A stretch of 64,000 nt of DNA from Alphaproteobacteria bacterium. GTDB lineage: Bacteria; Pseudomonadota; Alphaproteobacteria; UBA828. This document shows, piece by piece, positions 1,245 through 21,446 of the stretch (position 1 is its first letter; every line of letters begins with the position of its first letter). The DNA lies in contig CAXXMU010000002.1 of NCBI GenBank assembly GCA_963667785.2, forward strand, positions 160,001 through 224,000. Reading direction: 5' to 3'. The notes beneath the pieces were generated by a model that was given only the letters and a program-made list of their open reading frames with translations, had not been told where the DNA came from and did no database searches. The position numbers and the translations under genes were made by a program.

Positions 1245-1330
1245 GTTCGATGCCGCGTGCGGCACGCGAGGAGGATGGCTGCGAGGGCCGGCGGACGGCA
1301 GCCTGACTCCCGGCATCCGGAGGCAGCGTC

Positions 1331-3346
1331 ATGCCGAAGGGTTGGCAGGTCGGGATCGATGTCGGTGGCACGTTCACCGACGTGATCGCCGTGAGCCGGG
1401 CGCATGGCGAGGTCCGCGTTGCCAAGGTCCCCTCCCGCAGCGACGACCGCATCGCCGGTCTGATGGCGGCGCTCGCAGCCGTCGATCTCGACTGGTCGGC
1501 GGTGGACGATCTGATCCACGGCACGACCATCGTCACCAACGCCATCGTCCAGGGCCAGCACGCCAGGGTCGCGCTGATCGCCACCAAGGGGTTCTCGGAC
1601 ACGCTGGCGATCGGGCGCCAGAACCGGCGCCACCTCTACCGGCTCGACCTGCCGCCCAAGCTCCCGCCCCAGGTCCCCGCCGAGCGCCGCTTCGAGGTGA
1701 CCGAGCGGCTCGACCATGAGGGCCGGGTGCTGGTCGCGCTGAACCCGGACTCGGTAGACGACGCCGTCGATAGCATCGCGGCGTGCGGCGCCGAGGCCGT
1801 CGCCGTCTCGCTCCTCCATGCTTACGCGAACCCCGCGCACGAGGAGGCGCTGGGTGCGCGGCTGCGGGCGCGGGTTCCTTACGTGGCGCTCTCGCACCGG
1901 GTGAACCCCGAGGCGCGGGAGTACGAGCGCACGGCGACGACGGCGCTCAGCGCCGGCGTGATGCCGCTGGCCGCGTCCTATCTCGACGAGCTGGAGGAGG
2001 CGAAGCCGGCGGGCTCCGGCCTGCATCTCTTCCATTCCGCGGGCGGCATGGCATCGCCCGCGGCGCTCCGCGACTTGCCGCTCGGCCTCGCCGCCTCTGG
2101 CCCCGCCGCCGGTGTCGCTGCCGCAGGCCGCATGGCCCGCGCGCTCGGGCTGGAACGCGCCATCAGCTTCGACATGGGCGGAACCACTACCGACGTCTGC
2201 CTGATTCTCGACGGCGAGGCGCAGATTTCGAGCGACCGCTCCCTCGGCGGGCGGCCCCTGCGCCAGCCCATGGTGGCGGTGGAGTCCATCGGCGCGGGCG
2301 GCGGCTCCATCGCCCGGCTCGATCACGGCTCTCTCGCGGTCGGGCCGGAAAGCGCCGGCGCGGACCCGGGCCCGGCCTGCTACGCCAGGGGCGGCGACCG
2401 CCCCACGGTGACCGACGCCAATCTGGTGCTCGGCTATATGGACAAGGAGCGTGTTCTCGGCGGCGGCCTCAGCCTCGATGCCGCCGCCGCCCGCGACGCG
2501 CTGGCGCCGCTTGCCGCGGGCATGGAGATGGCCGTGGAGGGTGCCGCTCTGGGCGTCGTCAGGGTGGCCAACGCGGCCATGCTGCGCGCGCTGCGCCGGG
2601 TTACGGTGGAGCGCGGCGTGGATGGCCGCGGCTGCACGCTGCTCGCCTTCGGCGGCGCAGGCCCGATGCATGCGGTGGCGCTGGCGCGCGCCTTCTCCAT
2701 CGCCGACGTCGTGGTTCCCGCCCACTCCAGCATCTTCTCTGCGCTCGGCTGCGTCGGCGCGGAGATGAGCTACGCGCAGCAGCGCACGCTGCGCATGGCG
2801 TCGGACGCCTGGGACGGAACGCGCGTCGACCGGGTGCGGCGGGAGCTGCGCGCCGATCTCGCCGCGCCGCTCGCAGCCGCCGGCCATGACGAGGGCGAGC
2901 TTTCGGTGGAGGAGGTGGCATCGGTCCGCTACCGCAGCCAGAGCTACGCCATCGAGGTGGCGGATGCGTCGTTCGACGACCCGGCCCGCCTGGGCCGCGC
3001 CTTCAGGGAGCGGCATCGGGCGCTCTACGGCTTCGCGACCGAGGAGCCGTGGGAGCTGGAATCGATCCGCATGCGCCTCGCTGCGCCCCGCAACGGCCTC
3101 GCCCATCCGCCCGCCGCCGCGGCCAACGAGGCGCCCGAGCCGGTCGAGACGCTGCCGTGCACGTTCGGGCCCGGCGCGCCGCTGCTGACGCCCCGCTACG
3201 ACCGCGCCGGCCTCGGCCCCGACGTGCCGCTGGCGGGGCCCGTCATCGTCGACGACGCGTGGTCGACCGTCGTGGTGCCGCCCGGTGCGACGCTCACCGC
3301 CGATGCCGCCGGCCATCTCCACATCGCCACGGGGGCGGGCCGGTGA
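1331..3346 (+). CDS. Hydantoinase/oxoprolinase subunit A (HyuA/OplA-like, ATP-dependent)
   Basis: GIDVGGTFTD, HGTTIVTNA, SGPAAGV, FDMGGTTTD, IGAGGGSI, GPESAGADPGPACY, PTVTDAN, AFGGAGPMH motifs. Confidence 0.92.
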   Translation: MPKGWQVGIDVGGTFTDVIAVSRAHGEVRVAKVPSRSDDRIAGLMAALAAVDLDWSAVDDLIHGTTIVTNAIVQGQHARVALIATKGFSDTLAIGRQNRRHLYRLDLPPKLPPQVPAERRFEVTERLDHEGRVLVALNPDSVDDAVDSIAACGAEAVAVSLLHAYANPAHEEALGARLRARVPYVALSHRVNPEAREYERTATTALSAGVMPLAASYLDELEEAKPAGSGLHLFHSAGGMASPAALRDLPLGLAASGPAAGVAAAGRMARALGLERAISFDMGGTTTDVCLILDGEAQISSDRSLGGRPLRQPMVAVESIGAGGGSIARLDHGSLAVGPESAGADPGPACYARGGDRPTVTDANLVLGYMDKERVLGGGLSLDAAAARDALAPLAAGMEMAVEGAALGVVRVANAAMLRALRRVTVERGVDGRGCTLLAFGGAGPMHAVALARAFSIADVVVPAHSSIFSALGCVGAEMSYAQQRTLRMASDAWDGTRVDRVRRELRADLAAPLAAAGHDEGELSVEEVASVRYRSQSYAIEVADASFDDPARLGRAFRERHRALYGFATEEPWELESIRMRLAAPRNGLAHPPAAAANEAPEPVETLPCTFGPGAPLLTPRYDRAGLGPDVPLAGPVIVDDAWSTVVVPPGATLTADAAGHLHIATGAGR

Positions 3347-4938
3347 GCGGCGCCGTCGATCCCGTGACCCTCGAGGTGATCCGCCACGCGCTGACGGCGA
3401 CGGCGGAGGAGATGTCGCTCGTGGTCATGCGCTCGGCGCGCTCGCCGCTGCTGCGCGAGGCCGGCGACCTCTCGTCGGCGCTGACCGATGCCGACGGCCA
3501 CCTCATCGCCCAGGGCCGCGACATTCCCATGCACATGGGGGTGATGAGCTTCACCGTCCGCGAGTTCCTGAAGCGGGTGCCGCGCGAGCGGCTGGAGCCC
3601 GGCGACGTCTGGTTCCTCAACCTGCCGGAGGTCGGCGGCAACCACCTGCCGGACGTGAAGGCGATCCGGCCGATCTTCGTGGACGACGCGATCGTGGCCT
3701 TCGCGGCGAGCCTCGCCCACTGGGCGGATATCGGCGGCGCCGTGCCCGGCAGCTACGTCGCCGGCGCCACCGACGCCTGGCAGGAGGGCCTGCGCATCCC
3801 GCCCTTCCGTCTCTTCACCGCCGCCGGGCCCGACCGCGAGAAGCTCGACATGATCTGCGCCAACGTGCGCGGCGCGGACGAGCGCGAAGGCGACATCCTG
3901 GCCCAGGTCGCGGCCAGCCGGGCGGCCGAGGAGCGCGTGCACCAGATCTGCGCCGAGCACGGCACCGAGACGGTGACCGCCGCCATCGCCGCCATCCACG
4001 ACCGGGCCGAGGCGCAGATGCGCACAGCACTCGCGGCGATCCCCGACGGCGACTACGCGGGCGAGGACTGGCTCGACGACGATGCCGGCGGCGGCGGCCC
4101 CGTCGCCGTCCGCGTGCGCGCGACCATCGCGGGCGATCATGCGCGCTTCGACTTCTCGGAGACCGACGACGCGGCGCGGGGGCCGGTGAACACCACGCCC
4201 TTCATCGCCGCGGCCTCTGTCTTCTACGTGGTGAAGGCGCTGTTCGGTCCCGACATCCAGCCGAGCGGCGGCTGCTACCGGCCGCTGGAGATCGTGACCC
4301 GGCCCGGCTCGCTGCTCGATCCCGGCCCGGAAAGCCCCGTGGTGGGCGGCAATCACGAGACCTCGCAGCGGATCGCCGACGCCGTGTTCCGGGCGCTGGA
4401 GCCGACCGGGCCGGAGCGGCTCACGGCCGGCGGGCCGACCACGTCCGGCCTGGTGCTGTTCGGCGGCAGGCGGAGCGACGGTGCCTGGACCACGCTCTAC
4501 GAGGTCCACGGCGGCGGTGAGGGCGCGCGGCACGACCGCGACGGGGCGCCGGTGATCCGGGTCCACATGTCCAACGTGATGAACACGCCGGCCGAGGTGG
4601 TCGAGGCCGAGTATCCCATCCGCATCGAGTGCCAGCGCCTGCGCCGCGACTCCGGCGGTGCCGGCCGCCACCGCGGCGGCGAGGGGCTGCATCGCGAATA
4701 CAGGGTTCTGGGCGACGACATGTCGGTGACCTCGATGTTCGAGCGCCGCGTGGTGCCGCCCTACGGCCTGCAGGGCGGCGAGGAAGGCGCGCCCTTCCGC
4801 GTGACCGTCGTCCGTGCGGAAGGCCGCAGCTACGACATGCCGGGAAAGGCGAACCTCCGGCTCGGCGAGAACGACCTGGTCGTCGTCGAGAGCTGCGGCG
4901 GCGGCGGATACGGGCAGCCAGAAAGCGAAGGCCGATGA
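3343..4938 (+). CDS. Hydantoinase/oxoprolinase subunit B (HyuB/OplB-like)
   Basis: GTG start overlaps the upstream TGA; DPVTLEVI, RSARSPLLREAGDLS, GGNHLPD, AHWADIGG, QEGLRIPP, NTPAEVVE, GGGGYG. Confidence 0.92.
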   Translation: MSGAVDPVTLEVIRHALTATAEEMSLVVMRSARSPLLREAGDLSSALTDADGHLIAQGRDIPMHMGVMSFTVREFLKRVPRERLEPGDVWFLNLPEVGGNHLPDVKAIRPIFVDDAIVAFAASLAHWADIGGAVPGSYVAGATDAWQEGLRIPPFRLFTAAGPDREKLDMICANVRGADEREGDILAQVAASRAAEERVHQICAEHGTETVTAAIAAIHDRAEAQMRTALAAIPDGDYAGEDWLDDDAGGGGPVAVRVRATIAGDHARFDFSETDDAARGPVNTTPFIAAASVFYVVKALFGPDIQPSGGCYRPLEIVTRPGSLLDPGPESPVVGGNHETSQRIADAVFRALEPTGPERLTAGGPTTSGLVLFGGRRSDGAWTTLYEVHGGGEGARHDRDGAPVIRVHMSNVMNTPAEVVEAEYPIRIECQRLRRDSGGAGRHRGGEGLHREYRVLGDDMSVTSMFERRVVPPYGLQGGEEGAPFRVTVVRAEGRSYDMPGKANLRLGENDLVVVESCGGGGYGQPESEGR

Positions 4939-5750
4939 ACGCACGAACGAAGCAGGGGAACGGTGCAGTGAAGCTGGATGGCAGGAAGGCAATCGTCACG
5001 GGCGCGGCGAAGGGCATGGGCGCCGCCATCACGACGACGCTGGCGCGCGAGGGCGCCGACGTCGTGCTGACCGCCCGCGACACCGAGCCGCTCGAACGGG
5101 TGGCGGAGGATGTCCGGGCGCTGGGGCGCACGGCCCACGTGATCGGCTGCGACGTGACCGAGGATGCCGAGGTCAAGGCCATGGTCGATGCGGCGCTCGG
5201 CGCCTTCGACGGGCGCATCGACATCCTGGTCAACATCGCCGGCGTCACCGGGCCGATCGAGACGCCGGTGCAGGACATCGACGTGGCCGACTTCGACTAC
5301 GTCATCACCGCCAACGAGCGCGGCACCTTCCTGCCCATCAAGTATGTGGTGCCGACCATGATCGCCCAGCGAAGCGGCAAGATCGTCAATATCGGCGGCA
5401 CCTCGGGCCTGCGCGGCTACGCCATGCGGACCGCCTACAGCGCGTCCAAGTGGGCGGTGCGCGGGATCACGCGCACCGTCGCGCTCGAGGTCGGCAAGTA
5501 CAACGTCAACGTCAACGCCGTCTGCCCCGGCATCGTCGAGACGCCGCGCATGCAGAAGCTCTGCGAGGAGAAGGCCCGCGTGCGCGGCTGGACGGTGGAC
5601 GAGGTGTACGACGAGTACGTGCAGGAGATGTGCCTCAAGCGCGTCACCACCTGCCAGGACGTGGCCAACGCCGTGCTCTTCATGGCGAGCGAGGACAGCC
5701 GCCAGATCACCGGCCAGGCCATCACGGTCGACGGTGGCTGGGACGTGTGA
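4935..5750 (+). CDS. Short-chain dehydrogenase/reductase (classical SDR)
   Basis: TGAAKGMG Rossmann motif, NIAG, YSASK catalytic motif, VNAVCPG, ITGQAITVDGG; ATGA overlap (alternative GTG at 4968). Confidence 0.9.
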   Translation: MNARTKQGNGAVKLDGRKAIVTGAAKGMGAAITTTLAREGADVVLTARDTEPLERVAEDVRALGRTAHVIGCDVTEDAEVKAMVDAALGAFDGRIDILVNIAGVTGPIETPVQDIDVADFDYVITANERGTFLPIKYVVPTMIAQRSGKIVNIGGTSGLRGYAMRTAYSASKWAVRGITRTVALEVGKYNVNVNAVCPGIVETPRMQKLCEEKARVRGWTVDEVYDEYVQEMCLKRVTTCQDVANAVLFMASEDSRQITGQAITVDGGWDV

Positions 5751-5784
5751 GGCGGCAGCGCAGGCGATAGCGGGAGGCGTCACG

Positions 5785-6651
5785 ATGTACGCGCCGTTCG
5801 AACTGGACATTCCGAACGATCTGGCGGGCGCCTTGGCGGCGCTCGCGAACGGGGCCGGCGAGGCGGTTCTCCCCCTCGCCGGCGGCACCAACCTCATCGT
5901 CGACATCCGCGCCGGGCGCGAGCGGCCCGACCGGATGGTGGGCCTCGACGGGGTCGACGAGCTCAAGGGCATGGAGTTCGGGCCGGAGCGCGTCACCATC
6001 GGCGGCCGCACCACGGTGAGTGACCTGCTGCGCTCGCCCGAGATCGCCCGGGAGGCGCCCTCGCTGGTCGAAGCCGCGCGCCTCTTCGGCGGCCTGATGG
6101 TGCGCAACACAGGCACCGTCGCCGGCAACATCGCCAGCGGCTCGCCGGCGGCCGACCTGGTGCCGCCGCTGCTCACGCTCGACGCCGAGTTGGTGCTTCA
6201 GAGCGCCGCGTCCACGCGCACGCTGGCGCTGGACGACTACTACCTCGGCTACAAGCAGGACGCGCGGCGGCCGGACGAGCTGATCACCCGGATCTCGTGG
6301 CCGCGCCTGCCGGAGAACGCCGTCAACACCTTCTACAAGCTCGCCCGGCGCAAGGGCGACGCGATCACGGTGACCGGCGTGGCGGTGACGCTGGCGGCGG
6401 CGGGCGGCACCTGCACCAGGGCGCGGATCGCCCTCGCCTCCGTCGCGCCGGTGGTGCGCCGCGTCAAGGAGGCCGAGGCGCTGCTGGAGGGCCGGGCGCT
6501 GACGCCGTCGCTGATCGACGAGGCGGCGGAGGCGGCGGCGGAGGCGTGCACGCCCATCGACGATATCCGGGCCTCCGCCGATTACCGCCGACACACAGTC
6601 CGGGCGCTGACCCGCCGCCTCGTTGCCGGGGCGTGGGACCGGCTGGCCTAG
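5785..6651 (+). CDS. Molybdenum hydroxylase FAD-binding (medium, CoxM/XdhB-like) subunit
   Basis: LAGGTNL, VRNTGTVAGNI, SPAADL, PIDDIRASADYR; GGGAGG RBS before ATG 5785. Confidence 0.9.
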   Translation: MYAPFELDIPNDLAGALAALANGAGEAVLPLAGGTNLIVDIRAGRERPDRMVGLDGVDELKGMEFGPERVTIGGRTTVSDLLRSPEIAREAPSLVEAARLFGGLMVRNTGTVAGNIASGSPAADLVPPLLTLDAELVLQSAASTRTLALDDYYLGYKQDARRPDELITRISWPRLPENAVNTFYKLARRKGDAITVTGVAVTLAAAGGTCTRARIALASVAPVVRRVKEAEALLEGRALTPSLIDEAAEAAAEACTPIDDIRASADYRRHTVRALTRRLVAGAWDRLA

Positions 6652-6664
6652 GGGAGTGACGCGC

Positions 6665-9492: not shown

Positions 9493-9517
9493 GCGCCGGC
9501 CTGCGGCGAGCCGAGGC

Positions 9518-10279
9518 ATGTCCGAGACCAACGACAAGCCGCTGAGCCGGTACATCCGGGTGCTGGAGACGGTCGCCCACGCCAGGACGGGCGTGACGCT
9601 CACGGACATCGCCAGGGAGCTGGAGCTGCATCCGGGGACGGCGCATCGCCTGATCCGCGGTCTCGTCGCTCTCGACCTGCTGCACAGTCCGGCCGGAACC
9701 AAGAGCTACGTGGCCGGTGCCAGGCTTCAGTCTCTCCTCCACGCGACCATGGACCGCGCGGGCTATGCGGCGTTCGCGAAGTCCGTCCTCGACGGGCTCG
9801 TGGCGGAGTTCGGCGAGACCGCCCATCTGGCGCGGCTGAGCGGCGACTTCGCCGAGTCCGTGCTGATGGAGCAGCCGTCGGGCTCCGACCGCGCCTTCGT
9901 GCAGCCGGGGCGCCAGCTTCCGTTGCACGCGGCGGCGTCGGGCAAGGCGATCCTCGCCTTTCAGGACGAGGACTTCGTGGCGCGCTATCTCACGCGGCCG
10001 CGCGAGCAGTTCACGGAAAGGACCAAGGTCGGCGAGACCGCCATCCGCAACGAGATCGACCGCATTCGCGCCGACGGGATGGCGGTCTGCGACAACGAGC
10101 TCGACAGCGGCGTGCTCAGCTACGGGCACCCGGTGCGGATCGGCGGCGGTCAGGTCCTCTATTCGGTCGGCATCACCGGGCTCGCCGACCGCTTCCGCCC
10201 CATCGATCGCTCCAGGATCAAGCTGAGGCTCTCGGAGGCGGCGGCCGATCTCGGCAGGAGGCTCGGGTTCACAGGCTAA
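9518..10279 (+). CDS. IclR family transcriptional regulator
   Basis: N-terminal HTH (TLTDIARELELHPGTAHRL), GETAHL, PGRQLPLHAAASGKAILA. Confidence 0.9.
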   Translation: MSETNDKPLSRYIRVLETVAHARTGVTLTDIARELELHPGTAHRLIRGLVALDLLHSPAGTKSYVAGARLQSLLHATMDRAGYAAFAKSVLDGLVAEFGETAHLARLSGDFAESVLMEQPSGSDRAFVQPGRQLPLHAAASGKAILAFQDEDFVARYLTRPREQFTERTKVGETAIRNEIDRIRADGMAVCDNELDSGVLSYGHPVRIGGGQVLYSVGITGLADRFRPIDRSRIKLRLSEAAADLGRRLGFTG

Positions 10280-10285
10280 GGGAAT

Positions 10286-11233
10286 GTGTCGATGGTCGAC
10301 TCACGCTTGGCGGACATCGTTCGAAACTGCCGGAACACGACGGCCAGCAGCTGCGGCGGCTATCTGGAGCCGACGGCCACGGGTCAGCCGGGAGCCTACG
10401 TCTCGACGATTCTGCTTTCGACCGGCAGCGTCAATCTCGAGCAGTTTCCGGGCTACCCGTTCGAGGAGGATCTGGACCAGGGCATGGCCGAGATCGTGTC
10501 CTACGACCGCGCCGAGTGTAACGATTCCTATATCGGCCAGGTCAACATGCTGCAGGCGTCGTCGTTCAGCGGCGTCAACGGCGCCATCTGGGGCTACGAC
10601 CTGGCGATCGAACCCCGCATCGGCAAGACCTATCCCGTCGGCCGCATCGAGAACATTCCCATCTACTCGCTCATTCCCCTGCGCGACGCCACCCGGCAGC
10701 TCTTCGGCGTCGCCGAGAGCCGGCACTTTCCGCCGCAGGAAGGGGCGATGGTCGTCTGTGCCGAGAAGTACCGGACGAGCACGGTCTCCGACGGCAATCT
10801 CTGGATCTGGTGCGCGCTCGGCTTCGCGATTGCGGAGGATCGCGAGAACCATGCCTGCCTGTTCATGGAAGATACGGGCTCGCTGGCGCTGGGGCCGGAC
10901 GGGGGACAGGCGGTGCGGGAGAGGCTCGACGACAGGCTCAACAGGATCGCCTACGCGGCGTACCTCTGCGGCGTGAACCAAGGCGCGACCTACGAGAAGA
11001 TCTATATCGGCTGGAAGGCGTCCCACATTCCCGAGAACCATGTGGGCTGCGCGCTCGCCTGCGCGCCGTACGTGACGCTGCCGACGGGCGCGTTCAGGAA
11101 CATCACGCCGGAGACGGGCATCCTGGAGCTTTCGACGGACGAGTGGCTGTCCCGGGTCGGCCACTCCAGGGTGGACGAGCCCGACTACGAGCTCGAGACC
11201 CTGACCGGGCCGAACATCCCGGCCGTGCAGTAG
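10286..11233 (+). CDS. hdcA: Pyruvoyl-dependent histidine decarboxylase proenzyme (HdcA-like)
   Basis: IVSYDRAE, YIGQVNMLQAS/SFSG self-cleavage site (Ser-Ser codons 10559-10564), IWGYDL, VVCAEK, LFMED and ACAPY match the recalled Lactobacillus-type HdcA pattern; start may be ATG 10292. Confidence 0.85.
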   Translation: MSMVDSRLADIVRNCRNTTASSCGGYLEPTATGQPGAYVSTILLSTGSVNLEQFPGYPFEEDLDQGMAEIVSYDRAECNDSYIGQVNMLQASSFSGVNGAIWGYDLAIEPRIGKTYPVGRIENIPIYSLIPLRDATRQLFGVAESRHFPPQEGAMVVCAEKYRTSTVSDGNLWIWCALGFAIAEDRENHACLFMEDTGSLALGPDGGQAVRERLDDRLNRIAYAAYLCGVNQGATYEKIYIGWKASHIPENHVGCALACAPYVTLPTGAFRNITPETGILELSTDEWLSRVGHSRVDEPDYELETLTGPNIPAVQ

Positions 11234-11279
11234 GCAACGGCTGCCACTCCCGATGGGCCGCTGACCGGAGAGTCGTGCG

Positions 11280-12365
11280 TTGACCGAGACGAGCATAGCG
11301 ATCGACGTGCGTAACGCGGTGAAGCGCTTCGGCGCGGTCACGGCGCTCGCCGGCGCGTCGCTGACGATCCGGGACAACGAGTTTTTCACGCTGCTCGGCC
11401 CTTCGGGCTGCGGCAAGACCACCCTGCTCCGCCTCATCGCCGGCTTCGAGGAGATCACCGAGGGCGAGATCCTCCTCTACGGCGAGGACCTCGGGGCGCT
11501 GCCGCCCAACCGGCGCCCGATCAACACCGTCTTCCAGCACTACGCGCTCTTCCCGCACATGACGGTGGCGGAGAACGTGGCCTTCGGCATGCGGAGGCTC
11601 GGCTGGAGCAAGGCCGACATCGAGGACCGGACGCTGCGCATCCTCGATCTGGTGAAGCTCGGCGACCTCGCGGCGCGGAGGCCCGCCCAGCTTTCGGGCG
11701 GGCAGCAGCAGCGGGTGGCACTCGCCCGCGCCATGGCGCCCCGGCCGAAGGTGCTCCTGCTCGACGAGCCGCTGTCCGCGCTCGACCTCAAGCTGCGTCA
11801 GGCCATGCGGATCGAGCTGAAGCAGATCCAGAAGGATACCGGCATCACCTTCGTCTTCGTCACCCACGACCAGGAAGAGGCGCTGACCATGTCAGACCGC
11901 ATCGCCGTGATGTCGGCGGGCGAGATCCGGCAGGTGGGCACGCCACGCGAGATCTACGAGGCGCCCCTCGACCGCTTCGTGGCCGACTTCATCGGCGAGA
12001 CCAACGTGCTGGACGCGACCGTGCGGCGGGGGCCGGACGATGCACTGACCTGCCACCTTGCCAACGGGGCCGCGTTCCCGTGCCACGCGAGCGTGCCGCC
12101 AGGAGACGGGGCCTTCGCACACGTGCTGATTCGGCCGGAGCGCCTCTCCCTCGTGCCCGAGGCGGTGTGCGACACCGGCCTCACGGGCGTGGTCGACCAG
12201 GCCGTCTACCTCGGCACCGACATCCAGTACGGCGTGCGGCTGGATGGGGGGCCGGACGTCCTGGTCCGCGCGCAGAATGTCGGCGCCGACGCGGTGACCT
12301 ATCGCACCGGTGATCGCGTCGGGCTCGCCATCGCCCCCGGCGCTGCGCGACTGCTGGTGGACTGA
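11280..12365 (+). CDS. Polyamine-type ABC transporter ATP-binding protein (PotA-like)
   Basis: GPSGCGKT, LSGGQQQRVALARA, LLLDEPLSALD, VTHDQEEA, C-terminal TOBE-like region. Confidence 0.93.
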   Translation: MTETSIAIDVRNAVKRFGAVTALAGASLTIRDNEFFTLLGPSGCGKTTLLRLIAGFEEITEGEILLYGEDLGALPPNRRPINTVFQHYALFPHMTVAENVAFGMRRLGWSKADIEDRTLRILDLVKLGDLAARRPAQLSGGQQQRVALARAMAPRPKVLLLDEPLSALDLKLRQAMRIELKQIQKDTGITFVFVTHDQEEALTMSDRIAVMSAGEIRQVGTPREIYEAPLDRFVADFIGETNVLDATVRRGPDDALTCHLANGAAFPCHASVPPGDGAFAHVLIRPERLSLVPEAVCDTGLTGVVDQAVYLGTDIQYGVRLDGGPDVLVRAQNVGADAVTYRTGDRVGLAIAPGAARLLVD

Positions 12366-13291
12366 TGGCCGGCGAGCTCGCCAGCACGCGCGCGGTCTCC
12401 CGCACCTTCGCGCCGGTGCGCACCCACTTGCTGATCCCGACCTGGGTGATCATCGGCTTCTTCCTCGTGGCGCCGGTGCTGATGATGCTCGTCTACTCCT
12501 TCCTGACGAAGGAGTTTCGGGGCGGCGTGATCTGGGACTTCTCGCTCGCGGCCTACGACCAGTTCATCTTCGACCGCGGCCTCTTCGGCGACGATCCGCC
12601 GCAGATCGAGTGGACCTACATCGTCATCTTCGCGCGCTCGATCGTGCAGGCCGCCGTCGCCACCGTGCTCTGCCTCATCATCGGCTTCCCGACCGCCTAC
12701 TTCATCGCGACCCGCTCGCCCGCGACGCGCTCGATGTGGCTCTTCCTGGTGACGGTTCCCTACTGGGTGAACCTGCTCATCCGCACGGTCTCGATGAAGT
12801 TCCTCATCCGCGACAACGGGCCGCTCAACGAGGCGCTGCTCGGTCTCGGGGTCATCAGCGAGCCGATCGCGCTCATCAACACCGATTTCGCCGTGCAGCT
12901 CGGCCTCTTCTACTCGTATCTGCCCTTCATGGTGCTGCCGATCTACGCCTCGGTGGAGCGCTACGACTTCGCCCTTTCGGAGGCGGCGGCCGACCTCTAC
13001 GCCAACCGCTGGACGATCCTGCGCAGGGTGATCCTGCCGATCGTGCGGCCAGGCATCGTGGCGGGCTGCATCCTGGTCTTCGTGCCAAGCCTCGGCGCCT
13101 TCCTCGCGCCCGACCTTCTCGGCGGCGCGAAGAACTTCCTGATCGGCTCGCTGATCGAGGAGCAGTTCAAGGGCAACGCCGGCAACTGGCCCTTCGGCGC
13201 TGCCGCCTCGATGATCCTGCTCTCCCTCGTGCTGATCGCGCTCTTCATCTACGCGCGCCGGCAGGCGCTGCGCAGCGCGAAGGCCGCCTGA
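12365..13291 (+). CDS. Polyamine-type ABC transporter permease (PotB-like)
   Basis: Hydrophobic helices, [18 protein letters not shown] (EAA loop), NWPFGAA. Confidence 0.9.
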
Positions 13292-13292
13292 G

Positions 13293-14114
13293 ATGCGGCG
13301 CAGGCTCGACATCCGCCGCTATCCCGGCTTCCTGCCGGTGACGATCCTCTGCCTCGTGGTGCTCTACGCGCCGCTGCTGGTGGTGATGGTCTACAGCTTC
13401 AACGACTCGCTCTCGATCACCCGCTGGGGCGGGTTCAGCTTCCGCTGGTACATGGACATCTTCACCGGGCCGGAATCGGCCAAGTTCAAGGATGCGGCGT
13501 GGAACTCGCTCACCATCGCGCTCTGCGCGGCGACGGCCAGTACGACCATCGCCACCGCCGCGGCGGTCGCGATGGTGCGGGGCGGCGCCTTCCGCGGCAA
13601 GGCGCTCAACCTCGCGCTCATCAGCATGCCGATCATGGTGCCGGAGATCGTCACCGCGGTGGCGACGCTGGTCTTCTTCAGCGCCATCGGTTTCACGCTC
13701 GGCTATCTCTCCATTCTCGTCGCCCACATCGTCTTCTGCATTCCGTTCGCGTACCTGCCGATCGCGGCACGCCTGCAGGGGATCGACGGCAGCTACGAGG
13801 AGGCCGCGCAGGATCTTTACGCGAGCCGCTTCCAGGCGTTCCTGCGCGTTCTCATGCCGTTGATGGCGCCCGGCATTCTCGCGGGCTTTCTGCTGGCATT
13901 CATCATCTCGCTGGACGATTTCATCATCACCAACTTCATCAAGGGCGCCGGTATCGAGACCCTGCCCACGGCGATATTCGGGGCCGTGAAGCAGGGCATC
14001 AAACCCAACATCATGGCGCTCAGCACCATCATGCTCTCCGTCTCGATCCTGATCGTCACGCTCTCCTATTTCATCAGCCGGTACGGTCGTCAGGGAACGA
14101 AGGCGGAGGCGTGA
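13293..14114 (+). CDS. Polyamine-type ABC transporter permease (PotC-like)
   Basis: YSFN...W.GFS.RWY, PEIV, EEAAQDL, SLDDF, ETLP motifs. Confidence 0.9.
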
Positions 14115-14152
14115 GTTTTTTGCGGCAATCAAACTCAACCAAGGAGGCCACA

Positions 14153-15190
14153 ATGCGCTACTTGCTCAAAGCCGGAATGGCGGCGTTGGCCCTGACCCTT
14201 GTCGCAGGCGCGGCACAGGCGCAGGAGAAGCTCTCGATCTACCACTGGTTCGAGTACATCCCGCAGGAGCTGCTGGACAAGTTCTCCGCGGAAACGGGAA
14301 TCGAGGTGACCATGGACACCTTCGATTCCAACGAGGCCATGCTGGCATCGCTCAAGGCCGGCAAGCTCGGCTCCTACGACGTGGCGGTGCCGGGCGATTA
14401 CATGGTCGAGATCATGATCGGCGAAGGCATGCTCGACACCGTCGCGGACGGCGAGCTCGCCAACTTCGCGAACATCGAGCAGCAGTGGCTGGACGTGCCC
14501 TTCGACATGGGCCGCAAGCACTCGATCCCCTACCAGTGGGGCTCGACCAGCTTTTCGGTCAACCGGGACGTCTATCAGGGCGACATCAACGACACCGCCA
14601 TCGTCTACGACCCGCCGGACGAGCTTAAGGGCAGGATCAACGTGCTCGACTCCCAGGGCGAGGTCATGCTGCTGGCTGCCCTCCACCTCGGCATTCCGCA
14701 GTGCTCGACCGACCGCGAGCAGCTCAAGCAGCTCGACGCGCTGCTGCAGGCGGCGAAGCCGCACTGGGCCTCGTTCAACTCCGACGGCGCCAAGGACGTG
14801 CTGGTCTCCGGCGACGCCGCGGTGGGGATGATCTGGAACGGCTTCGGCGCCAAGGCACGCGCCGAGGGCGCCAACATCGAGTACGCCTACCCGCGCCAGG
14901 GTTATGTCGTCTGGATGGACAATGTCGTGCTGCTGAAGGACGCCCCCAACCGGGCCAGCGCGATCAAGTTCATGGACTTCCTGCTGGAGCCGGAGAACAT
15001 CGCCGCGGTCACCAACTACGCGCGCTATGCCGCCGGCGTGACGGGCGTGACTCCGCATCTCGATCCGGAGCTCGCCAGCCAGCCCGAATCGGTGCCGCCG
15101 GCCGACGCGCCTGCCGGCACCTTCGTCGCCGTGTGCGATCAGGCGACGCAGGAGGTCTACGACACCATGTGGACCCGCCTGAAGAAGTAG
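14153..15190 (+). CDS. Polyamine-type ABC transporter periplasmic binding protein (PotD/PotF-like)
   Basis: AAGGAGG RBS, signal peptide ending AQA, W.EYI, FDSNEAM, PYQWG, WNG, WMDN. Confidence 0.9.
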   Translation: MRYLLKAGMAALALTLVAGAAQAQEKLSIYHWFEYIPQELLDKFSAETGIEVTMDTFDSNEAMLASLKAGKLGSYDVAVPGDYMVEIMIGEGMLDTVADGELANFANIEQQWLDVPFDMGRKHSIPYQWGSTSFSVNRDVYQGDINDTAIVYDPPDELKGRINVLDSQGEVMLLAALHLGIPQCSTDREQLKQLDALLQAAKPHWASFNSDGAKDVLVSGDAAVGMIWNGFGAKARAEGANIEYAYPRQGYVVWMDNVVLLKDAPNRASAIKFMDFLLEPENIAAVTNYARYAAGVTGVTPHLDPELASQPESVPPADAPAGTFVAVCDQATQEVYDTMWTRLKK

Positions 15191-15274
15191 ACGTCCGTTA
15201 CCCGTTGCCGGGCGGCGCGCTCCAGCGGGGCGCGTCGCGCCGGCCACCCCTGTCTCGGCCGATCGGGTGATCCC

Positions 15275-17347
15275 ATGAGCGTTGATTCGCGTTTCGACAT
15301 TCTGCTTCAGCCCATCGAGATCGGGCCCGTCACCGCCCGCAACCGCTTCTACCAGGTGCCGCATTGCACCGGCATGGGCTACCGCGACCCGACGGCGCTC
15401 GCCCACATGCGCGGCGTCAAGGCCGAAGGGGGCTGGGCCGTGGTCTGCACCGAGCAGGTCGAGTTCCACTGGACCTCGGAGATCACGCCCTTCATCGAGC
15501 TCCGGCTCTGGGACGACCGCGACATTCCGATGCTCGCCAGGATGGCGGAGCACGTCCACGCGCACGGCGCGCTCGCCGGGCTGGAGCTTTGCTACAACGG
15601 CGCGCACGCGCCCAACTTCTATTCGCGCGAAGTGCCGCTGGCGCCGACGGGCCTGCCGGTCGCGAGCTTCAGTTACGAGCCCGTCCAGGCGCGCAGCATG
15701 GACAAGCAGGACATCCGCAACGTCCGCCGCTGGCACAGGGCGGCGGCGCTTCGCGCCCGGCAGGCGGGCTACGACCTGATCTACGTGTACGCCGGCCACG
15801 GGCTGAGCTTCCTCCATCACTTCCTCTCCAGGGAGTTCAATCACCGCACGGACGAATACGGCGGCTCGCTGGAGAACCGCGTCCGGCTCCTCAAGGAGCT
15901 CCTGACCGACACCAGGGAGGCGGTGGGCGACACCTGCGCCGTTCCCTGTCGCCTCTCGATGGACGAGCTGCGCGGGGGCGTCGGGCTGGAGAAGGCCGAG
16001 ACCGAGGACATGATCGGACTCGTGGCCGAGATTCCGGACCTCTGGGACGTCTGCCTCGCCTCCTGGGAGAACGACAGCATGCCGTCCCGCTTCGGCGAGG
16101 AGGGCGGGCAGGAGCCCTACATCGACGGCGTGAAGAAGCTCACCACCAAGCCCGTGGTGGGCGTCGGCCGCTACACCTCGCCCGACCGCATGGCGTCCAT
16201 CATCCGCAAGGGCATCGTCGACCTGATCGGCTGCGCGCGGCCCTCCATCGCCGATCCCTTCCTGCCGCGAAAGGTGGAGGAGGGGCGCATCGAGGACATC
16301 CGCGAGTGCATCGGCTGCAACATCTGCGTCTCCGGCGACTTCACCATGTCGCCCATCCGCTGCACCCAGAACCCGACCATGGGGGAGGAGTGGCGCCGGG
16401 GCTGGCATCCGGAGCGCATCCGGCCGAAGGAGAGCGACAAGCCCGTCCTCGTCGTCGGCGCCGGCCCCGCCGGACTGGAGGCGGCACAGGCGCTCGGCAA
16501 GCGGGGCTACGAGGTGACCCTGGCGGAGCAGGCCACGGAGCTCGGCGGCCGCGTGGCAAAGGAGTGCCGCCTGCCGGGGCTCGCCGCCTGGGGCCGGGTT
16601 CGCGACTGGCGCGTCGAGCAGCTTCACAAGCTGCCGAACGTGAGCGTCTACCTGGATTCACGCCTCGATGCGGAGGCCGTCCTTGAGTTCGGCTGCCCCC
16701 GCGTCGTCATCGCCACCGGGTCGCGCTGGCGCGGCGACGGGGTGGGCCGCCACTGGACGACGCCGGTGCCGACCGGGGACGGCGCGCAGGTGCTGACGCC
16801 CGACGACATCATGGAGGATCGTCTGCCGCAGGGCCGGCGCGTCCTCGTCTGGGACGACGATCACTACTACATGGCCAGCGTGATGGCCGAGCTCCTGGCG
16901 GAGAAGGGCTTCGACACCACCTACGTTACGCCCGCGTCGGAGGCCTCGACCTGGTCGCGCAACACCATGGAGCAGCACTTCGCGCAGGCGCGCATGCTGG
17001 AGAAGGGAATTCGCATCCAGCCGTTCCGGACGCTAAACCGCATCGCGCCGGGCGCGGTCGCGCTCTCGTGCGTTCACACGGGCCGGGAGGAGGAGCTGGA
17101 GGCCGATGCCGTGCTCCTCGTCACCTCCCGCACGCCGTCGGACGAGCTCGCGACCGCGCTCGCGCGCCTGCACGAGAGGTGGTCGGACGCCGGTCTCGAA
17201 GCCGTCGACGCCATCGGCGACGCGCTCGCGCCGGCGACCATCGCGCATGCCGTCTACGCCGGCCGGCGCTACGCGGAGGAGCTCGACGGCCCGGGGGTCA
17301 CGGGCGATGCGGTGCCCTTCAAGCGCGAGCTTGCCGAATTGATCTAG
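15275..17347 (+). CDS. Histamine dehydrogenase-like (TMADH/HADH family; 6-S-cysteinyl-FMN, 4Fe-4S)
   Basis: NRFYQVPHCTGMGYRDP (covalent FMN Cys), KAEGGWAVVCTEQVE, PFIELRLWD, CIGCNICVSGD...C cluster motif, GAGPAG; the GYRDP/PFIELR/SGDxTMSPIRC segments resemble recalled Nocardioides HADH more than TMADH. Confidence 0.8.
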   Translation: MSVDSRFDILLQPIEIGPVTARNRFYQVPHCTGMGYRDPTALAHMRGVKAEGGWAVVCTEQVEFHWTSEITPFIELRLWDDRDIPMLARMAEHVHAHGALAGLELCYNGAHAPNFYSREVPLAPTGLPVASFSYEPVQARSMDKQDIRNVRRWHRAAALRARQAGYDLIYVYAGHGLSFLHHFLSREFNHRTDEYGGSLENRVRLLKELLTDTREAVGDTCAVPCRLSMDELRGGVGLEKAETEDMIGLVAEIPDLWDVCLASWENDSMPSRFGEEGGQEPYIDGVKKLTTKPVVGVGRYTSPDRMASIIRKGIVDLIGCARPSIADPFLPRKVEEGRIEDIRECIGCNICVSGDFTMSPIRCTQNPTMGEEWRRGWHPERIRPKESDKPVLVVGAGPAGLEAAQALGKRGYEVTLAEQATELGGRVAKECRLPGLAAWGRVRDWRVEQLHKLPNVSVYLDSRLDAEAVLEFGCPRVVIATGSRWRGDGVGRHWTTPVPTGDGAQVLTPDDIMEDRLPQGRRVLVWDDDHYYMASVMAELLAEKGFDTTYVTPASEASTWSRNTMEQHFAQARMLEKGIRIQPFRTLNRIAPGAVALSCVHTGREEELEADAVLLVTSRTPSDELATALARLHERWSDAGLEAVDAIGDALAPATIAHAVYAGRRYAEELDGPGVTGDAVPFKRELAELI

Positions 17348-20504: not shown

Positions 20505-20570
20505 ACTGGCCTGCACAGGAACTCGGGCGGCCCGCCATCCGGCGGCGGGGCGGAACAGGGGAGAGACCGG

Positions 20571-21434: not shown

Positions 21435-21446
21435 AGGGAGGTGGAG

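What the first reader, a model, noticed from the sequence alone, without database searches (positions are those of the whole stretch)
1331..17347. Putative undescribed histidine/histamine catabolic operon: pyruvoyl histidine decarboxylase + histamine dehydrogenase + Mo-hydroxylase + ATP-dependent cyclic amidohydrolase
Seen: 13 co-oriented genes with overlaps or gaps of at most ~85 nt (hyuA-hyuB-SDR-coxM/S/L-like-iclR-hdcA-potABCD-like-HADH), with an amidase just upstream. Known: HdcA makes histamine; HADH oxidises histamine to imidazole-4-acetaldehyde; xanthine oxidase-family enzymes oxidise aldehydes and hydroxylate N-heterocycles with water-derived oxygen; HyuAB/OplAB open cyclic amides and ureides using ATP. 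The described routes I know are hut (via urocanate) and the Pseudomonas hin pathway (aminotransferase plus flavin enzyme); no hut or hin genes are recognisable here. Inference: His -> histamine -> imidazoleacetaldehyde -> imidazoleacetate or an imidazolone (Mo enzyme, SDR) -> ring opening (HyuAB) -> amide hydrolysis (amidase). This would be an oxygenase-free route pairing a histamine-producing with a histamine-consuming enzyme. The substrates could instead be methylated histidines or histamines.
Basis: partly seen in the sequence, partly recalled or inferred. Interest (0 to 1): 0.85.

Follow-up and report, generated by a model that had tools for sequence, protein, structure and literature searches.

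The report
Histamine operon with molybdenum ring-opening module
A marine alphaproteobacterium joins genes for making, importing and oxidising histamine to a conserved six-gene set (molybdenum hydroxylase, dehydrogenase, ATP-driven ring-opener) that probably breaks the imidazole ring without oxygenases, a route not yet described.

Summary
In detail: 13 co-oriented, tightly packed genes (1331-17347) encode HyuA, HyuB, an SDR, a three-subunit xanthine-dehydrogenase-family enzyme, IclR, a pyruvoyl histidine decarboxylase, a PotABCD-type importer and a histamine dehydrogenase scoring ~890 bits against two crystallised enzymes. The cluster fuses two units. HyuAB-SDR-XdhMSL is a conserved block found without histamine genes in five other alphaproteobacterial genomes and in metagenome loci. 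In this genus and two more distant metagenome contigs it is joined to pot/HADH. hdcA is a genus-specific add-on, lost in some relatives. The upstream amidase is not conserved. Three lines point to imidazole-4-acetate as the block's substrate: linkage to HADH survives four rearrangements; one distant locus embeds an omega-aminotransferase and an aldehyde dehydrogenase in the block; the closest other XdhL relatives (57-63%) sit in anaerobic clusters with a HisC-like aminotransferase, IOR, ADP-forming acyl-CoA synthetase, a D-hydantoinase-like enzyme and an aspartate-carbamoyltransferase-like enzyme. The usual hin genes are not linked to HADH here. The likely route is histamine to imidazoleacetate to hydantoin-5-acetate to N-carbamoyl-aspartate. 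No step is biochemically shown. Earlier notes of this scan recorded the six-gene block as an orphan; this window supplies a substrate lead.

The parts
1181..1245 (+). Promoter/operator-like region upstream of hyuA: TTGACA at 1181-1186, then an AT-rich stretch with the inverted repeat TTGCG-N5-CGCAA at 1230-1244. GGAGG at 1319-1323 precedes the ATG at 1331.
   Evidence: TTGACA and the ribosome-binding stretch are invariant in 9 of 9 aligned relatives, while sequence further upstream is unalignable. Function is inferred.
1331..3346 (+). hyuA, ATP-dependent hydantoinase/oxoprolinase family, A subunit
   Evidence: PF01968 272 bits and PF05378 174 bits. Best solved relatives are N-methylhydantoinase 7hk5 (369 bits) and caprolactamase 6yra (323 bits). 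Caprolactamase equivalog scores 425 bits against a cut-off of 1000.
3343..4938 (+). hyuB, B subunit; overlaps hyuA by 4 nt
   Evidence: PF02538 597 bits. 6yra_B 217 bits, 7hk5 213 bits; carboxylases much weaker.
4974..5750 (+). Classical short-chain dehydrogenase/reductase (start codon uncertain)
   Evidence: PF13561 and PF00106. TGxxxGxG and YxxxK motifs are visible in the sequence. It travels with hyuAB and xdhMSL in other lineages.
5734..6651 (+). xdhM, FAD subunit of the Mo hydroxylase (likely start ATG 5785)
   Evidence: PF00941 and PF03450
6623..7153 (+). xdhS, 2x[2Fe-2S] subunit (likely start ATG 6665)
   Evidence: PF01799 and PF00111
7150..9492 (+). xdhL, molybdopterin subunit; candidate imidazole-ring hydroxylase
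   Evidence: PF02738, PF20256 and PF01315. It falls below every NCBIfam equivalog cut-off. Best solved relative is 4-hydroxybenzoyl-CoA reductase at 362 bits. E262 (GGGFGGKE), R370 (FRGFG) and E731 (GIGEP) are kept in all 24 close and 56 more distant relatives examined.
9518..10279 (+). IclR-family regulator
   Evidence: PF09339 and PF01614. An IclR gene also accompanies the six-gene block in other lineages at 40-44% identity.
10286..11233 (+). hdcA, pyruvoyl-type histidine decarboxylase proenzyme
   Evidence: PF02329 148 bits. TIGR00541 scores 149 bits against a cut-off of 347. S92-S93 align to the S81-S82 cleavage site of 1pya/1hq6; I, Y, D, E, F and E align to residues 59, 62, 63, 66, 195 and 197.
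11280..15190 (+). potA, potB, potC, potD-like ABC importer (ATPase, two permeases, periplasmic binding protein); candidate histamine importer
   Evidence: Pfam. The binding protein is 72% identical to the one in the Leisingera HADH/hin-type cluster. The PotD equivalog scores 212 bits against a cut-off of 582.
15275..17347 (+). Histamine dehydrogenase (TMADH family; 6-S-cysteinyl-FMN, 4Fe-4S)
   Evidence: 894 and 890 bits to 6de6 and 3k30. C31 and the CxxCxxCx12C motif are present. 6 of 8 proposed histamine-site residues and the Tyr/His/Asp triad are kept.

Best explanation
This is a composite, probably IclR-controlled operon for using histamine, and through HdcA also histidine, as a nutrient.

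First half. The PotABCD-type importer takes up histamine. HdcA decarboxylates histidine to histamine. HADH oxidises histamine to imidazole-4-acetaldehyde. The enzyme classes are shown by sequence; the substrates are inferred from close, characterised relatives.

Second half. The conserved block HyuAB-SDR-XdhMSL replaces the oxygenase-dependent hin branch. All steps here are inferred.
1. The aldehyde is oxidised to imidazole-4-acetate, by the Mo enzyme or by a housekeeping aldehyde dehydrogenase.
2. The Mo hydroxylase adds water-derived oxygen to a ring carbon next to nitrogen, giving an imidazolone.
3. The SDR performs the second two-electron oxidation, on the hydrated imidazolone, giving hydantoin-5-acetate (5-carboxymethylhydantoin).
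4. HyuAB opens that ring at the cost of ATP, giving N-carbamoyl-L-aspartate. This is a central metabolite that unlinked carbamoylases or pyrimidine enzymes can use.
For: (1) HADH scores 894 and 890 bits against the two crystallised histamine dehydrogenases. It keeps the FMN-linking Cys, the 4Fe-4S motif, the catalytic triad and 6 of 8 proposed histamine-site residues.

(2) PotD is 72% identical to the binding protein of a Leisingera cluster. That cluster combines HADH with aldehyde dehydrogenase, a HinF-like flavoprotein, RidA, DUF1028, ArgE-like and AspA genes, the known hin logic.

(3) In this genome those hin genes are not linked to HADH. The only DUF1028 gene (C5) has no HinF, RidA, ArgE or ALDH homologue within about 12 kb on either side.

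(4) hyuA-hyuB-SDR-xdhM-xdhS-xdhL is one conserved block. It is present in 5 of 5 other alphaproteobacterial genomes with enough flank (XdhL 62-76%). The SDR is present in 12 of 13 metagenome loci with at least 2 kb upstream of xdhL, and hyuB in 9 of those. The 13th has an ALDH at its contig edge.

(5) Linkage of the block to HADH survives four gene orders: iclR-hdcA-pot-HADH, iclR-pot-HADH (G432, L027), iclR-HADH (L026) and iclR-pot-HADH-hdcA (G422). It reaches relatives with only 69-71% identical IclR and HyuA.

(6) L038 (XdhL 76%) embeds a class-III omega-aminotransferase (NF004767, 680 bits against a cut-off of 517) and an aldehyde dehydrogenase in the block. This is the non-homologous amine-to-aldehyde-to-acid equivalent of HinC/HinD. 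ALDH is also embedded in L030 and L041.

(7) The nearest other XdhL clade (57-63% identity, 56 loci) shares E262, R370 and E731. It sits beside a second Mo hydroxylase, a D-hydantoinase-like enzyme (380 bits), an aspartate-carbamoyltransferase-like enzyme (371 bits against a cut-off of 237), IOR, an ADP-forming acyl-CoA synthetase and a HisC-family aminotransferase (356 bits against 277). This layout fits histidine to imidazoleacetate to hydantoin acetate to carbamoyl-aspartate.

(8) HyuAB belongs to the hydrolase branch, not the carboxylase branch. A carbamoylase-family amidase lies next to xdhL in L031, and two lie elsewhere in this genome.

(9) Contigs from one RNA library, from a close relative, bridge the iclR/hdcA and potC/potD junctions. 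This is weak, because DNA carry-over is not excluded.
Against: No step of the second half has been tested biochemically, and no characterised enzyme lies closer than about 360 bits to XdhL.

The block occurs in most lineages without any histamine gene and with other neighbours: Liv-type ABC transporters, a dimethylglycine-dehydrogenase-like gene plus MttB, and a dienelactone hydrolase. Its usual substrate could therefore be something else.

The closest plasmid-borne HyuAB (Tistrella; 55% and 67% identity) sits with a class-III aminotransferase and no Mo enzyme, which looks like a lactam context. G444 has xdhMSL at 75% identity without hyuAB or SDR within the 20 kb fetched.

All HADH-linked versions may descend from a single fusion event. 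In 8 genus genomes HADH lies elsewhere, beside amidase genes.

HADH positions 115 and 181 differ from the Nocardioides enzyme (His and Leu).

The cluster has no aldehyde dehydrogenase gene. The role given to the SDR is chemical reasoning only.

The reading of the anaerobic clusters is itself untested. Earlier notes of this scan reach the same reading, but they are not independent evidence.
Confidence: 0.5

Rival explanations
1. Two unrelated units happen to lie together. pot-HADH(-hdcA) handles histamine, and imidazoleacetate is excreted or degraded elsewhere. The HyuAB-SDR-XdhMSL block degrades a different, unidentified N-heterocycle or cyclic amide.
For: The block stands alone, with other transporters and neighbours, in 5 of 5 other alphaproteobacterial genomes and in most metagenome loci. 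In other lineages IclR belongs to the block, not to pot/HADH. HADH is unlinked in 8 genus genomes.
Against: The junctions are 6-25 nt with no terminator-like site. Linkage to HADH persists through four rearrangements and down to 69% IclR identity. The genome has no linked alternative route for imidazoleacetate. L038 couples the block independently to an amine-to-aldehyde-to-acid entry. The sister XdhL clade has a histidine-type context.
Confidence: 0.22
2. The imidazole ring is opened one oxidation earlier. The Mo enzyme makes 4-imidazolone-5-acetate and HyuAB hydrolyses it to N-formimino-aspartate, as HutI does in the Hut pathway. The SDR serves as the imidazole-acetaldehyde (hydrate) dehydrogenase. 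An amidase or deiminase finishes the job. This is.
For: The cluster lacks an aldehyde dehydrogenase, so the SDR or the Mo enzyme must cover that step. An amidase lies just upstream in this genome. The known hin route passes through imidazolone acetate (pathway details recalled).
Against: The SDR stays in the block in lineages that have their own embedded ALDH (L030, L038). The amidase is not conserved. The sister clusters carry two hydroxylases plus hydantoinase-like and ATCase-like genes, which points to a ureide and not a formimino product. A carbamoylase lies next to xdhL in L031.
Confidence: 0.12
3. An amine-to-lactam route for a diamine or agmatine-type compound. The Pot importer brings in a polyamine, the TMADH-family enzyme makes an aminoaldehyde that cyclises to an imine, the Mo enzyme and SDR oxidise it to a lactam, and HyuAB acts as an ATP-dependent lactamase giving an omega-amino acid.
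For: The transporter is of the PotABCD family. HyuAB is as close to caprolactamase as to N-methylhydantoinase. The Tistrella HyuAB relatives sit with an aminotransferase. Characterised HADHs also accept agmatine (passages).
Against: HdcA keeps the histidine-contact residues. HADH keeps most histamine-site residues. PotD is 72% identical to the one in a hin-type histamine cluster but far below the PotD equivalog cut-off. No omega-amino-acid aminotransferase is in the cluster. XdhL carries the Glu/Arg pair typical of hydroxylases of oxo-N-heterocycles (roles recalled). The sister clade context is ureide-type.
Confidence: 0.07

Closest known systems
Histamine (hin) pathway of Pseudomonas putida U / P. 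aeruginosa, and its HADH-initiated versions in Leisingera and Ideonella replicons
   Same: Both start with histamine uptake and oxidation to imidazole-4-acetaldehyde and imidazole-4-acetate, and both probably end at aspartate. HADH and PotABCD here are 57-64% and 60-72% identical to those of the Ideonella and Leisingera clusters.
   Different: The imidazoleacetate branch is missing from the locus: HinF flavin monooxygenase, HinL/RidA, HinH/DUF1028, HinG/ArgE-like and HinI/AspA. A Mo hydroxylase, an SDR and ATP-dependent HyuAB stand in its place. A histidine decarboxylase is added. The hin gene roles come from passages of PMC8231116 and PMC6467879. The primary paper (de la Torre 2018) was not seen.
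Anaerobic indoleacetate (iaa) pathway of Aromatoleum/Azoarcus
   Same: The same logic: a heteroaryl-acetate is hydroxylated next to the ring nitrogen, and the resulting lactam is opened by a HyuAB-type ATP-dependent hydrolase. HyuAB-like '2-oxoindoleacetyl-CoA gamma-lactamases' and IaaCE are named in passages of PMC5214803 and PMC8453981. The Mo-enzyme step is recalled; the primary paper was not held.
   Different: The cluster has no CoA ligase, mutase or beta-oxidation genes. The ring is imidazole, not indole. An SDR is an integral part. The product would be a central metabolite.
N-methylhydantoin amidohydrolase (creatinine route), caprolactamase and carboxymethylhydantoinase (EC 3.5.2.4)
   Same: HyuAB is a two-subunit ATP-dependent cyclic-amide hydrolase. 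Its nearest solved relatives are 7hk5 and 6yra. The proposed reaction, 5-carboxymethylhydantoin to N-carbamoyl-aspartate, is that of EC 3.5.2.4 (recalled).
   Different: It falls below the caprolactamase equivalog cut-offs. There is no creatinine deaminase or sarcosine enzyme in the operon. EC 3.5.2.4 is known (recalled) as an ATP-independent activity.
Twin Mo-hydroxylase clusters of anaerobes
   Same: The Mo subunit next to the ring-opening enzyme is 57-63% identical to XdhL and shares E262, R370 and E731. The logic is the same: two oxidations, then ring hydrolysis.
   Different: There the second oxidation is done by another Mo hydroxylase instead of an SDR. Ring opening is by a metal-dependent D-hydantoinase-like enzyme instead of HyuAB. 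The entry is a HisC-like aminotransferase, IOR and acyl-CoA synthetase instead of HdcA and HADH. An ATCase-like gene is present.

Membership tests
Pyruvoyl-dependent histidine decarboxylase (PF02329 / TIGR00541) | Family profile match | tested here: met
   PF02329 scores 147.7 bits against a gathering score of 25. However, the TIGR00541 equivalog scores 149 bits against a cut-off of 346.65, so this is a divergent member.
Pyruvoyl-dependent histidine decarboxylase (PF02329 / TIGR00541) | Ser-Ser self-cleavage site that yields the pyruvoyl group | tested here: met
   NMLQAS92-S93FSGVNG aligns to NMTTAS81-S82FTGVQG of 1hq6/1pya.
Pyruvoyl-dependent histidine decarboxylase (PF02329 / TIGR00541) | Histidine-contact and catalytic residues (Ile59, Tyr62, Asp63, Glu66, Phe195, Glu197 of the Lactobacillus 30a enzyme; roles recalled) | tested here: met
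   All six are identical in the HMMER alignment.
Pyruvoyl-dependent histidine decarboxylase (PF02329 / TIGR00541) | Decarboxylation of L-histidine | not testable with these tools
   Needs an enzyme assay.
Histamine dehydrogenase (TMADH family) | Close full-length similarity to characterised HADH, rather than to TMADH | tested here: met
   894 and 890 bits to 6de6 and 3k30, against 537 bits to TMADH 1djn.
Histamine dehydrogenase (TMADH family) | Cys for 6-S-cysteinyl-FMN and the 4Fe-4S Cys motif | tested here: met
   C31 aligns to Cys35. CIGCNICVSGDFTMSPIRC starts at residue 345.
Histamine dehydrogenase (TMADH family) | Proposed histamine-site residues of the N. simplex enzyme (Gln65, Ile74, Phe77, Glu79, Asn115, Tyr181, Trp267, Asp358; list from passages of PMC10180351) | tested here: inconclusive
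   6 of 8 are kept; Asn115 is His and Tyr181 is Leu. Leu at 181 is shared with the hin-linked Ideonella enzyme.
hin-type imidazoleacetate branch (HinF, HinL, HinH, HinG) | Flavin monooxygenase, RidA, DUF1028 and ArgE-like genes linked to the histamine genes | tested here: not met
   None is in the cluster. The best genome hits are scattered: FAD oxidoreductase 37% at C2:421438 and ArgE-like 44% at C2:126868. The single DUF1028 gene (C5) has no such neighbours.
Hut pathway | Urocanase and histidase genes in the genome | tested here: not met
   hutU has no match; the hutH model scores 71 bits against a cut-off of 539. The genome is 98% complete. hutU is also missing from 40 of 44 genomes of the family.
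Xanthine oxidoreductase family Mo hydroxylase | FAD, 2x[2Fe-2S] and Mo-pterin subunits, with the catalytic Glu | tested here: met
   Pfam domains. E731 aligns to the catalytic Glu of D. gigas aldehyde oxidoreductase, in GxGE (role recalled).
Bona fide xanthine dehydrogenase / CO dehydrogenase / 4-hydroxybenzoyl-CoA reductase / PaoABC | Score above the curated equivalog cut-off | tested here: not met
   pucD 530 against 784; XdhA 501 against 780; 4-HBCR 494 against 995; CODH 327 against 950; PaoC 301 against 1180. The CODH loop motif (recalled) is replaced by SAFRGFG.
ATP-dependent hydantoinase/oxoprolinase (HyuA/HyuB) hydrolases | Both subunits present and closer to the hydrolases than to the acetone or acetophenone carboxylases | tested here: met
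   Pfam. 7hk5 and 6yra score 369/323 bits (A subunit) and 213/217 bits (B subunit), against 209-210 bits (A) and 47-114 bits (B) for the carboxylases.
Caprolactamase CapAB | Equivalog cut-off | tested here: not met
   425 and 260 bits against cut-offs of 1000.
Anaerobic indoleacetate (iaa) cluster | CoA ligase or transferase, B12 mutase and beta-oxidation genes beside the Mo enzyme and HyuAB | tested here: not met
   None of the 13 genes carries such domains.

The most novel reading that the evidence does not exclude
XdhMSL of this clade is an imidazole-4-acetate (or imidazolone) hydroxylase. Together with the SDR and HyuAB it forms an oxygenase-free pathway from imidazole-4-acetate to N-carbamoyl-L-aspartate. 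This would be the respiratory counterpart of the widespread anaerobic twin-Mo-hydroxylase clusters. The two together would define a third general route of histidine/histamine catabolism, besides Hut and hin. In this sponge-associated genus the route is completed by a catabolic pyruvoyl histidine decarboxylase.
Probability: 0.4. Interest if true: 0.85.

Novelty: new variant of a known kind. Interest (0 to 1): 0.72.

Why it matters
Histamine and imidazoleacetate are signalling molecules and food toxicants. Only one bacterial route for the imidazoleacetate ring is described, and it depends on O2.

If the reading holds, it assigns a substrate to a conserved orphan gene block, and by extension to a large family of anaerobic twin Mo-hydroxylase clusters. 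It adds a new reaction type to the xanthine-oxidase family, namely imidazole hydroxylation. It gives ATP-dependent hydantoinases a physiological substrate. It would also show a pyruvoyl histidine decarboxylase, usually an acid-stress or amine-producing enzyme, used for catabolism.

The window is useful because it ties the orphan block to an enzyme family with solved structures and known substrate. That makes the hypothesis directly testable.

Tried and rejected
Plasmid and chromid records held no XdhL orthologue; the best match was 37% identical.

Pyruvoyl HDC genes of other alphaproteobacteria (Salipiger, Rhizobium) lie in unrelated contexts, so the HdcA/HADH pairing is not general.

The sigma-70 promoter and terminator scan was uninformative in this 70% GC DNA.

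The idea that absence of Hut points to an HdcA route was dropped as an argument. hutU is absent from 40 of 44 family genomes. It is present in two hdcA carriers (G423, G427) as well as in the hdcA-less G432.

The upstream ArgJ gene (bona fide, 514 bits against a cut-off of 351), the enolase-superfamily gene and the amidase were considered as pathway members and rejected, because they are not conserved.

The three further Mo large subunits at 21.7-32 kb are only 27-30% identical to XdhL. They are not the 'first hydroxylase' of the anaerobic clusters.

The distal HADH copies of relatives have no hin genes nearby; they sit beside amidase-family genes.

Parts of the stretch without long RNA-library contigs in X1 say nothing either way. 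The depth figures from contigs were not used.

Six paper searches on histamine or imidazoleacetate catabolism, Mo hydroxylases, hydantoinases and hydantoin acetate found no description of a Mo-hydroxylase/HyuAB route for imidazoleacetate, nor of an hdcA-HADH operon. The library lacks most subscription journals, and supplements could not be read.

Ebenau-Jehle 2012 was not held.

Looking up earlier findings by the XdhL sequence returned nothing.

Full report
WHAT IS THERE

The window is about 70% G+C and is G000:C2:160001-224000. Thirteen + strand genes run from 1331 to 17347 with overlaps or gaps of at most 84 nt. Pfam and NCBIfam give the following:
- HyuA and HyuB;
- a classical SDR;
- the FAD, 2Fe-2S and Mo subunits of a xanthine-oxidoreductase-family enzyme;
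- an IclR regulator;
- a pyruvoyl histidine decarboxylase;
- a PotABCD-type ABC importer;
- a TMADH-family flavoprotein.

A convergent threonine dehydratase gene ends the unit at 17367. Upstream on the same strand lie a bona fide ArgJ, an enolase-superfamily gene and an amidase-signature amidase. The one correction is that the Mo enzyme is not CoxL-like in any specific sense.

THE HISTAMINE HALF

The last gene scores 894 and 890 bits against the crystallised histamine dehydrogenases of Rhizobium sp. (6de6) and Nocardioides simplex (3k30). It scores 537 bits against trimethylamine dehydrogenase. It keeps the FMN-linking cysteine, the 4Fe-4S motif and the Tyr/His/Asp triad. It keeps 6 of the 8 residues proposed to line the histamine site; Asn115 is His and Tyr181 is Leu (residue list from passages of PMC10180351).

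HdcA is divergent. It is about 30% identical to the Lactobacillus 30a enzyme, and TIGR00541 scores 149 bits against a cut-off of 347. Even so, it has the Ser-Ser cleavage site and identical residues at positions 59, 62, 63, 66, 195 and 197 (residue roles recalled).

On replicons of Ideonella and Leisingera, HADH homologues (64% and 57% identical) sit with an aldehyde dehydrogenase, an FAD oxidoreductase, RidA, DUF1028, an ArgE-like gene, AspA and a PotABCD-type importer. This is the hin logic described for Pseudomonas (passages of PMC8231116 and PMC6467879). The window's PotD is 72% identical to the Leisingera binding protein. It is far below the spermidine/putrescine PotD cut-off. I therefore read the pot genes as a histamine importer; this is an inference.

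THE SECOND HALF IS A SEPARATE, CONSERVED BLOCK

XdhL has many relatives at 80% identity or more, far more than HdcA has.

In an even sample of 400 other genomes of the class, 6 have an XdhL at 62-76% identity. All 5 of those with enough flank carry hyuA-hyuB-SDR-xdhM-xdhS-xdhL in the same order, and 3 have an IclR gene beside it. None has hdcA, the pot genes or HADH. Their neighbours differ: Liv-type ABC transporters, a dimethylglycine-dehydrogenase-like gene plus MttB, and a dienelactone hydrolase.

A metagenome scan with XdhL returned 80 loci. Of these, 24 have XdhL at 70% identity or more. In that group the SDR was seen in 12 of the 13 loci that have at least 2 kb upstream of xdhL. The 13th, L041, has an aldehyde dehydrogenase at the contig edge. 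hyuB was seen in 9.

Exceptions were recorded. G444 has xdhMSL at 75% identity without hyuAB or SDR within the 20 kb fetched. A Tistrella plasmid has HyuAB at 55% and 67% identity with an aminotransferase but no Mo enzyme.

HOW THE TWO HALVES ARE JOINED

HdcA relatives above 80% identity are confined to one genus. They occur in 16 of 44 genomes of the family, all in genus g1, in 0 of 23 genomes of nine sister genera, and in 1 of 401 genomes (the own genome only) in the class sample.

A DNA search of the 21 genomes of the genus finds the hyuA..potD block in 18; G424 holds it only in fragments. It is not found in G428, G429 and G436.
- HADH follows potD in 9 genomes.
- HADH lies elsewhere, as a copy about 77% identical in DNA and beside amidase genes, in 8 genomes.
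- G432 has iclR-potABCD-HADH without hdcA.
- G422 has hdcA after HADH.

Two metagenome contigs of a more distant lineage (HyuA 71%, IclR 69%, HADH 75-77% identical) carry block-iclR-potABCD-HADH (L027) and block-iclR-HADH (L026), both without hdcA. L025 has an hdcA remnant that lacks residues 50-208.

The stable association is therefore block + IclR + histamine uptake and oxidation, and hdcA is a later add-on that can be lost again.

Upstream of hyuA, a TTGACA box and the ribosome-binding stretch are invariant in 9 of 9 relatives, while sequence further upstream is unalignable. No amidase was seen upstream of hyuA in L109, L025 or L036, the loci with enough upstream DNA to show one. The operon most likely starts at hyuA.

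WHY IMIDAZOLE-4-ACETATE IS THE LIKELY SUBSTRATE OF THE BLOCK

(a) HADH produces imidazole-4-acetaldehyde, and the genome shows no linked hin branch to deal with the acid. The Leisingera DUF1028 query found nothing. The Pfam model finds one DUF1028 gene on C5, with no HinF, RidA, ArgE or ALDH homologue within about 12 kb on either side.

(b) In L038 (XdhL 76%) the block has a class-III omega-aminotransferase in front of hyuA and an aldehyde dehydrogenase between the SDR and xdhM. An ALDH is also embedded in L030 and L041. This is an independent, non-homologous way of turning a primary amine into its acid directly upstream of the block, like HinC/HinD.

(c) The other 56 metagenome loci carry an XdhL of 57-63% identity with no SDR. 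Only L063 has a distant hyuAB. Within the limits of contig length, the counts out of 56 loci are:
- IOR alpha-like in 29;
- a D-hydantoinase-like amidohydrolase directly after xdhL in 13;
- POR gamma in 13;
- ADP-forming acyl-CoA synthetase in 13;
- a HisC-family aminotransferase in 9;
- an aspartate-carbamoyltransferase-like gene in 8;
- a second, different Mo hydroxylase upstream.

An aminotransferase that belongs to the imidazole-recognising HisC family, an arylpyruvate oxidoreductase and an acyl-CoA synthetase would turn histidine into imidazoleacetate. Two hydroxylations, a hydantoinase and a carbamoyltransferase specific for aspartate would then fit hydantoin-5-acetate and N-carbamoyl-aspartate. 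I reached this reading before consulting the scan's earlier notes. Several of those notes propose the same thing for such clusters. They are AI notes and not independent evidence.

(d) XdhL and both groups of relatives share GGGFGGKE, FRGFG and GIGEP. These are the Glu/Arg pair and the catalytic Glu of hydroxylases that bind oxo-N-heterocycles, in 24 of 24 and 56 of 56 sequences. The 19 'first hydroxylases' of the anaerobic clusters differ at these positions (residue roles recalled).

PROPOSED MECHANISM (INFERRED)

Both kinds of cluster provide two two-electron oxidations followed by ring hydrolysis. Here the steps would be as follows.
1. The Mo enzyme hydroxylates a ring carbon next to nitrogen.
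2. The SDR oxidises the hydrated imidazolone to the hydantoin.
3. HyuAB opens the hydantoin, with ATP, to N-carbamoyl-aspartate. HyuAB belongs to the hydrolase branch; its nearest solved relatives are N-methylhydantoinase and caprolactamase.

That product needs no dedicated downstream genes, which would explain why the block is self-contained. The genome has two unlinked carbamoylase-family amidases, and one such gene lies next to xdhL in L031. Oxidation of the aldehyde is unassigned; it could be done by the Mo enzyme, the SDR or a housekeeping ALDH.

A precedent for 'Mo hydroxylase, then HyuAB-type lactamase' on a heteroaryl-acetate is the anaerobic indoleacetate pathway. The HyuAB part is confirmed in passages of PMC5214803 and PMC8453981. 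The Mo part is recalled, because the primary paper was not held.

EXPRESSION

One run labelled as a sponge metatranscriptome (X1) holds contigs 90-97% identical to the stretch. One contig spans 10087-10344 (the iclR/hdcA junction) and another spans 13914-14760 (potC/potD). These are contigs of a relative from an RNA library. DNA carry-over is not excluded, so this is only a weak hint of transcription across those junctions.

WHAT WEAKENS THE CASE

- No biochemical data exist for any member of the block.
- Most carriers of the block have no histamine genes.
- All HADH-linked forms may go back to one fusion event.
- Absence of hutU and hutH in this genome is the family norm and carries little weight.
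- Six literature searches found no description of this route or of an hdcA-HADH operon. The library omits most subscription journals, and supplements were closed.

VERDICT

The histamine half is a new arrangement of known enzymes. The second half is a conserved, uncharacterised block for which this window provides the best substrate lead so far. I class the finding as a new variant of a known kind: histamine catabolism, and Mo-hydroxylase plus ATP-dependent ring opening. I put about 0.5 on the block acting on histamine-derived imidazoleacetate and about 0.4 on the full novel reading of a hydantoin-to-carbamoyl-aspartate route that mirrors the anaerobic clusters.

Noticed in passing
window 19188-31964 (+): A second island of xanthine-oxidoreductase-family genes follows an acyl-CoA-dehydrogenase-like gene. 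It holds an FAD subunit (20571-21434), three Mo large subunits (21749-24403, 24463-26832, 28851-31964) and a 2Fe-2S subunit (26870-27343). The Mo subunits are 27-30% identical to the cluster's XdhL, and two of them are 70% identical to each other.
   Followed up: partly
G000:C7:1-14963 (L107): A 15-kb contig of the same assembly carries a second copy of xdhS-xdhL-iclR-hdcA-potABCD-HADH...ilvA, 85-93% identical in protein, with HADH split over two frames. Given 6.6% contamination, a co-binned related strain is likelier than a true duplication.
   Followed up: partly
L025:10920-11366: A metagenomic relative keeps only residues 2-49 and 209-311 of hdcA between iclR and potA. It has lost the Ser-Ser pyruvoyl site, so this is a deletion remnant.
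   Followed up: yes
L047-L104 (e.g. L049:4290-21773, L076:1179-14928): Recurrent anaerobic-type clusters have this layout: IclR or GntR, ATCase-like, a first Mo hydroxylase with a fused FAD/FeS subunit, a second xdhMSL, D-hydantoinase-like, IOR, POR gamma, ADP-forming acyl-CoA synthetase, and a HisC-family aminotransferase. The layout fits histidine to imidazoleacetate to carbamoyl-aspartate.
   Followed up: partly
L038:354-17150: A variant of the six-gene block has a class-III omega-aminotransferase before hyuA and an aldehyde dehydrogenase between the SDR and xdhM. A Liv-type ABC transporter follows it.
   Followed up: partly
G430:C4:740574-742656, G428:C19:67578-69661 and others: Three tandem DUF1028 genes (240-250 bits each) occur in four genomes of the genus. 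In G430 they lie about 20 kb from the cluster, next to ABC transporter genes.
   Followed up: no
G000:C6:767558-772413 (L108): Two further TMADH-family genes lie in tandem (40% and 51% identical to HADH). The closer one differs at several histamine-site positions.
   Followed up: no
G432 (family-wide search): hutU occurs in only 4 of 44 genomes of the family. One of the four is G432, the complete genome whose cluster lacks hdcA. Two hdcA carriers (G423, G427) also have hutU, so the two genes are not cleanly complementary.
   Followed up: yes
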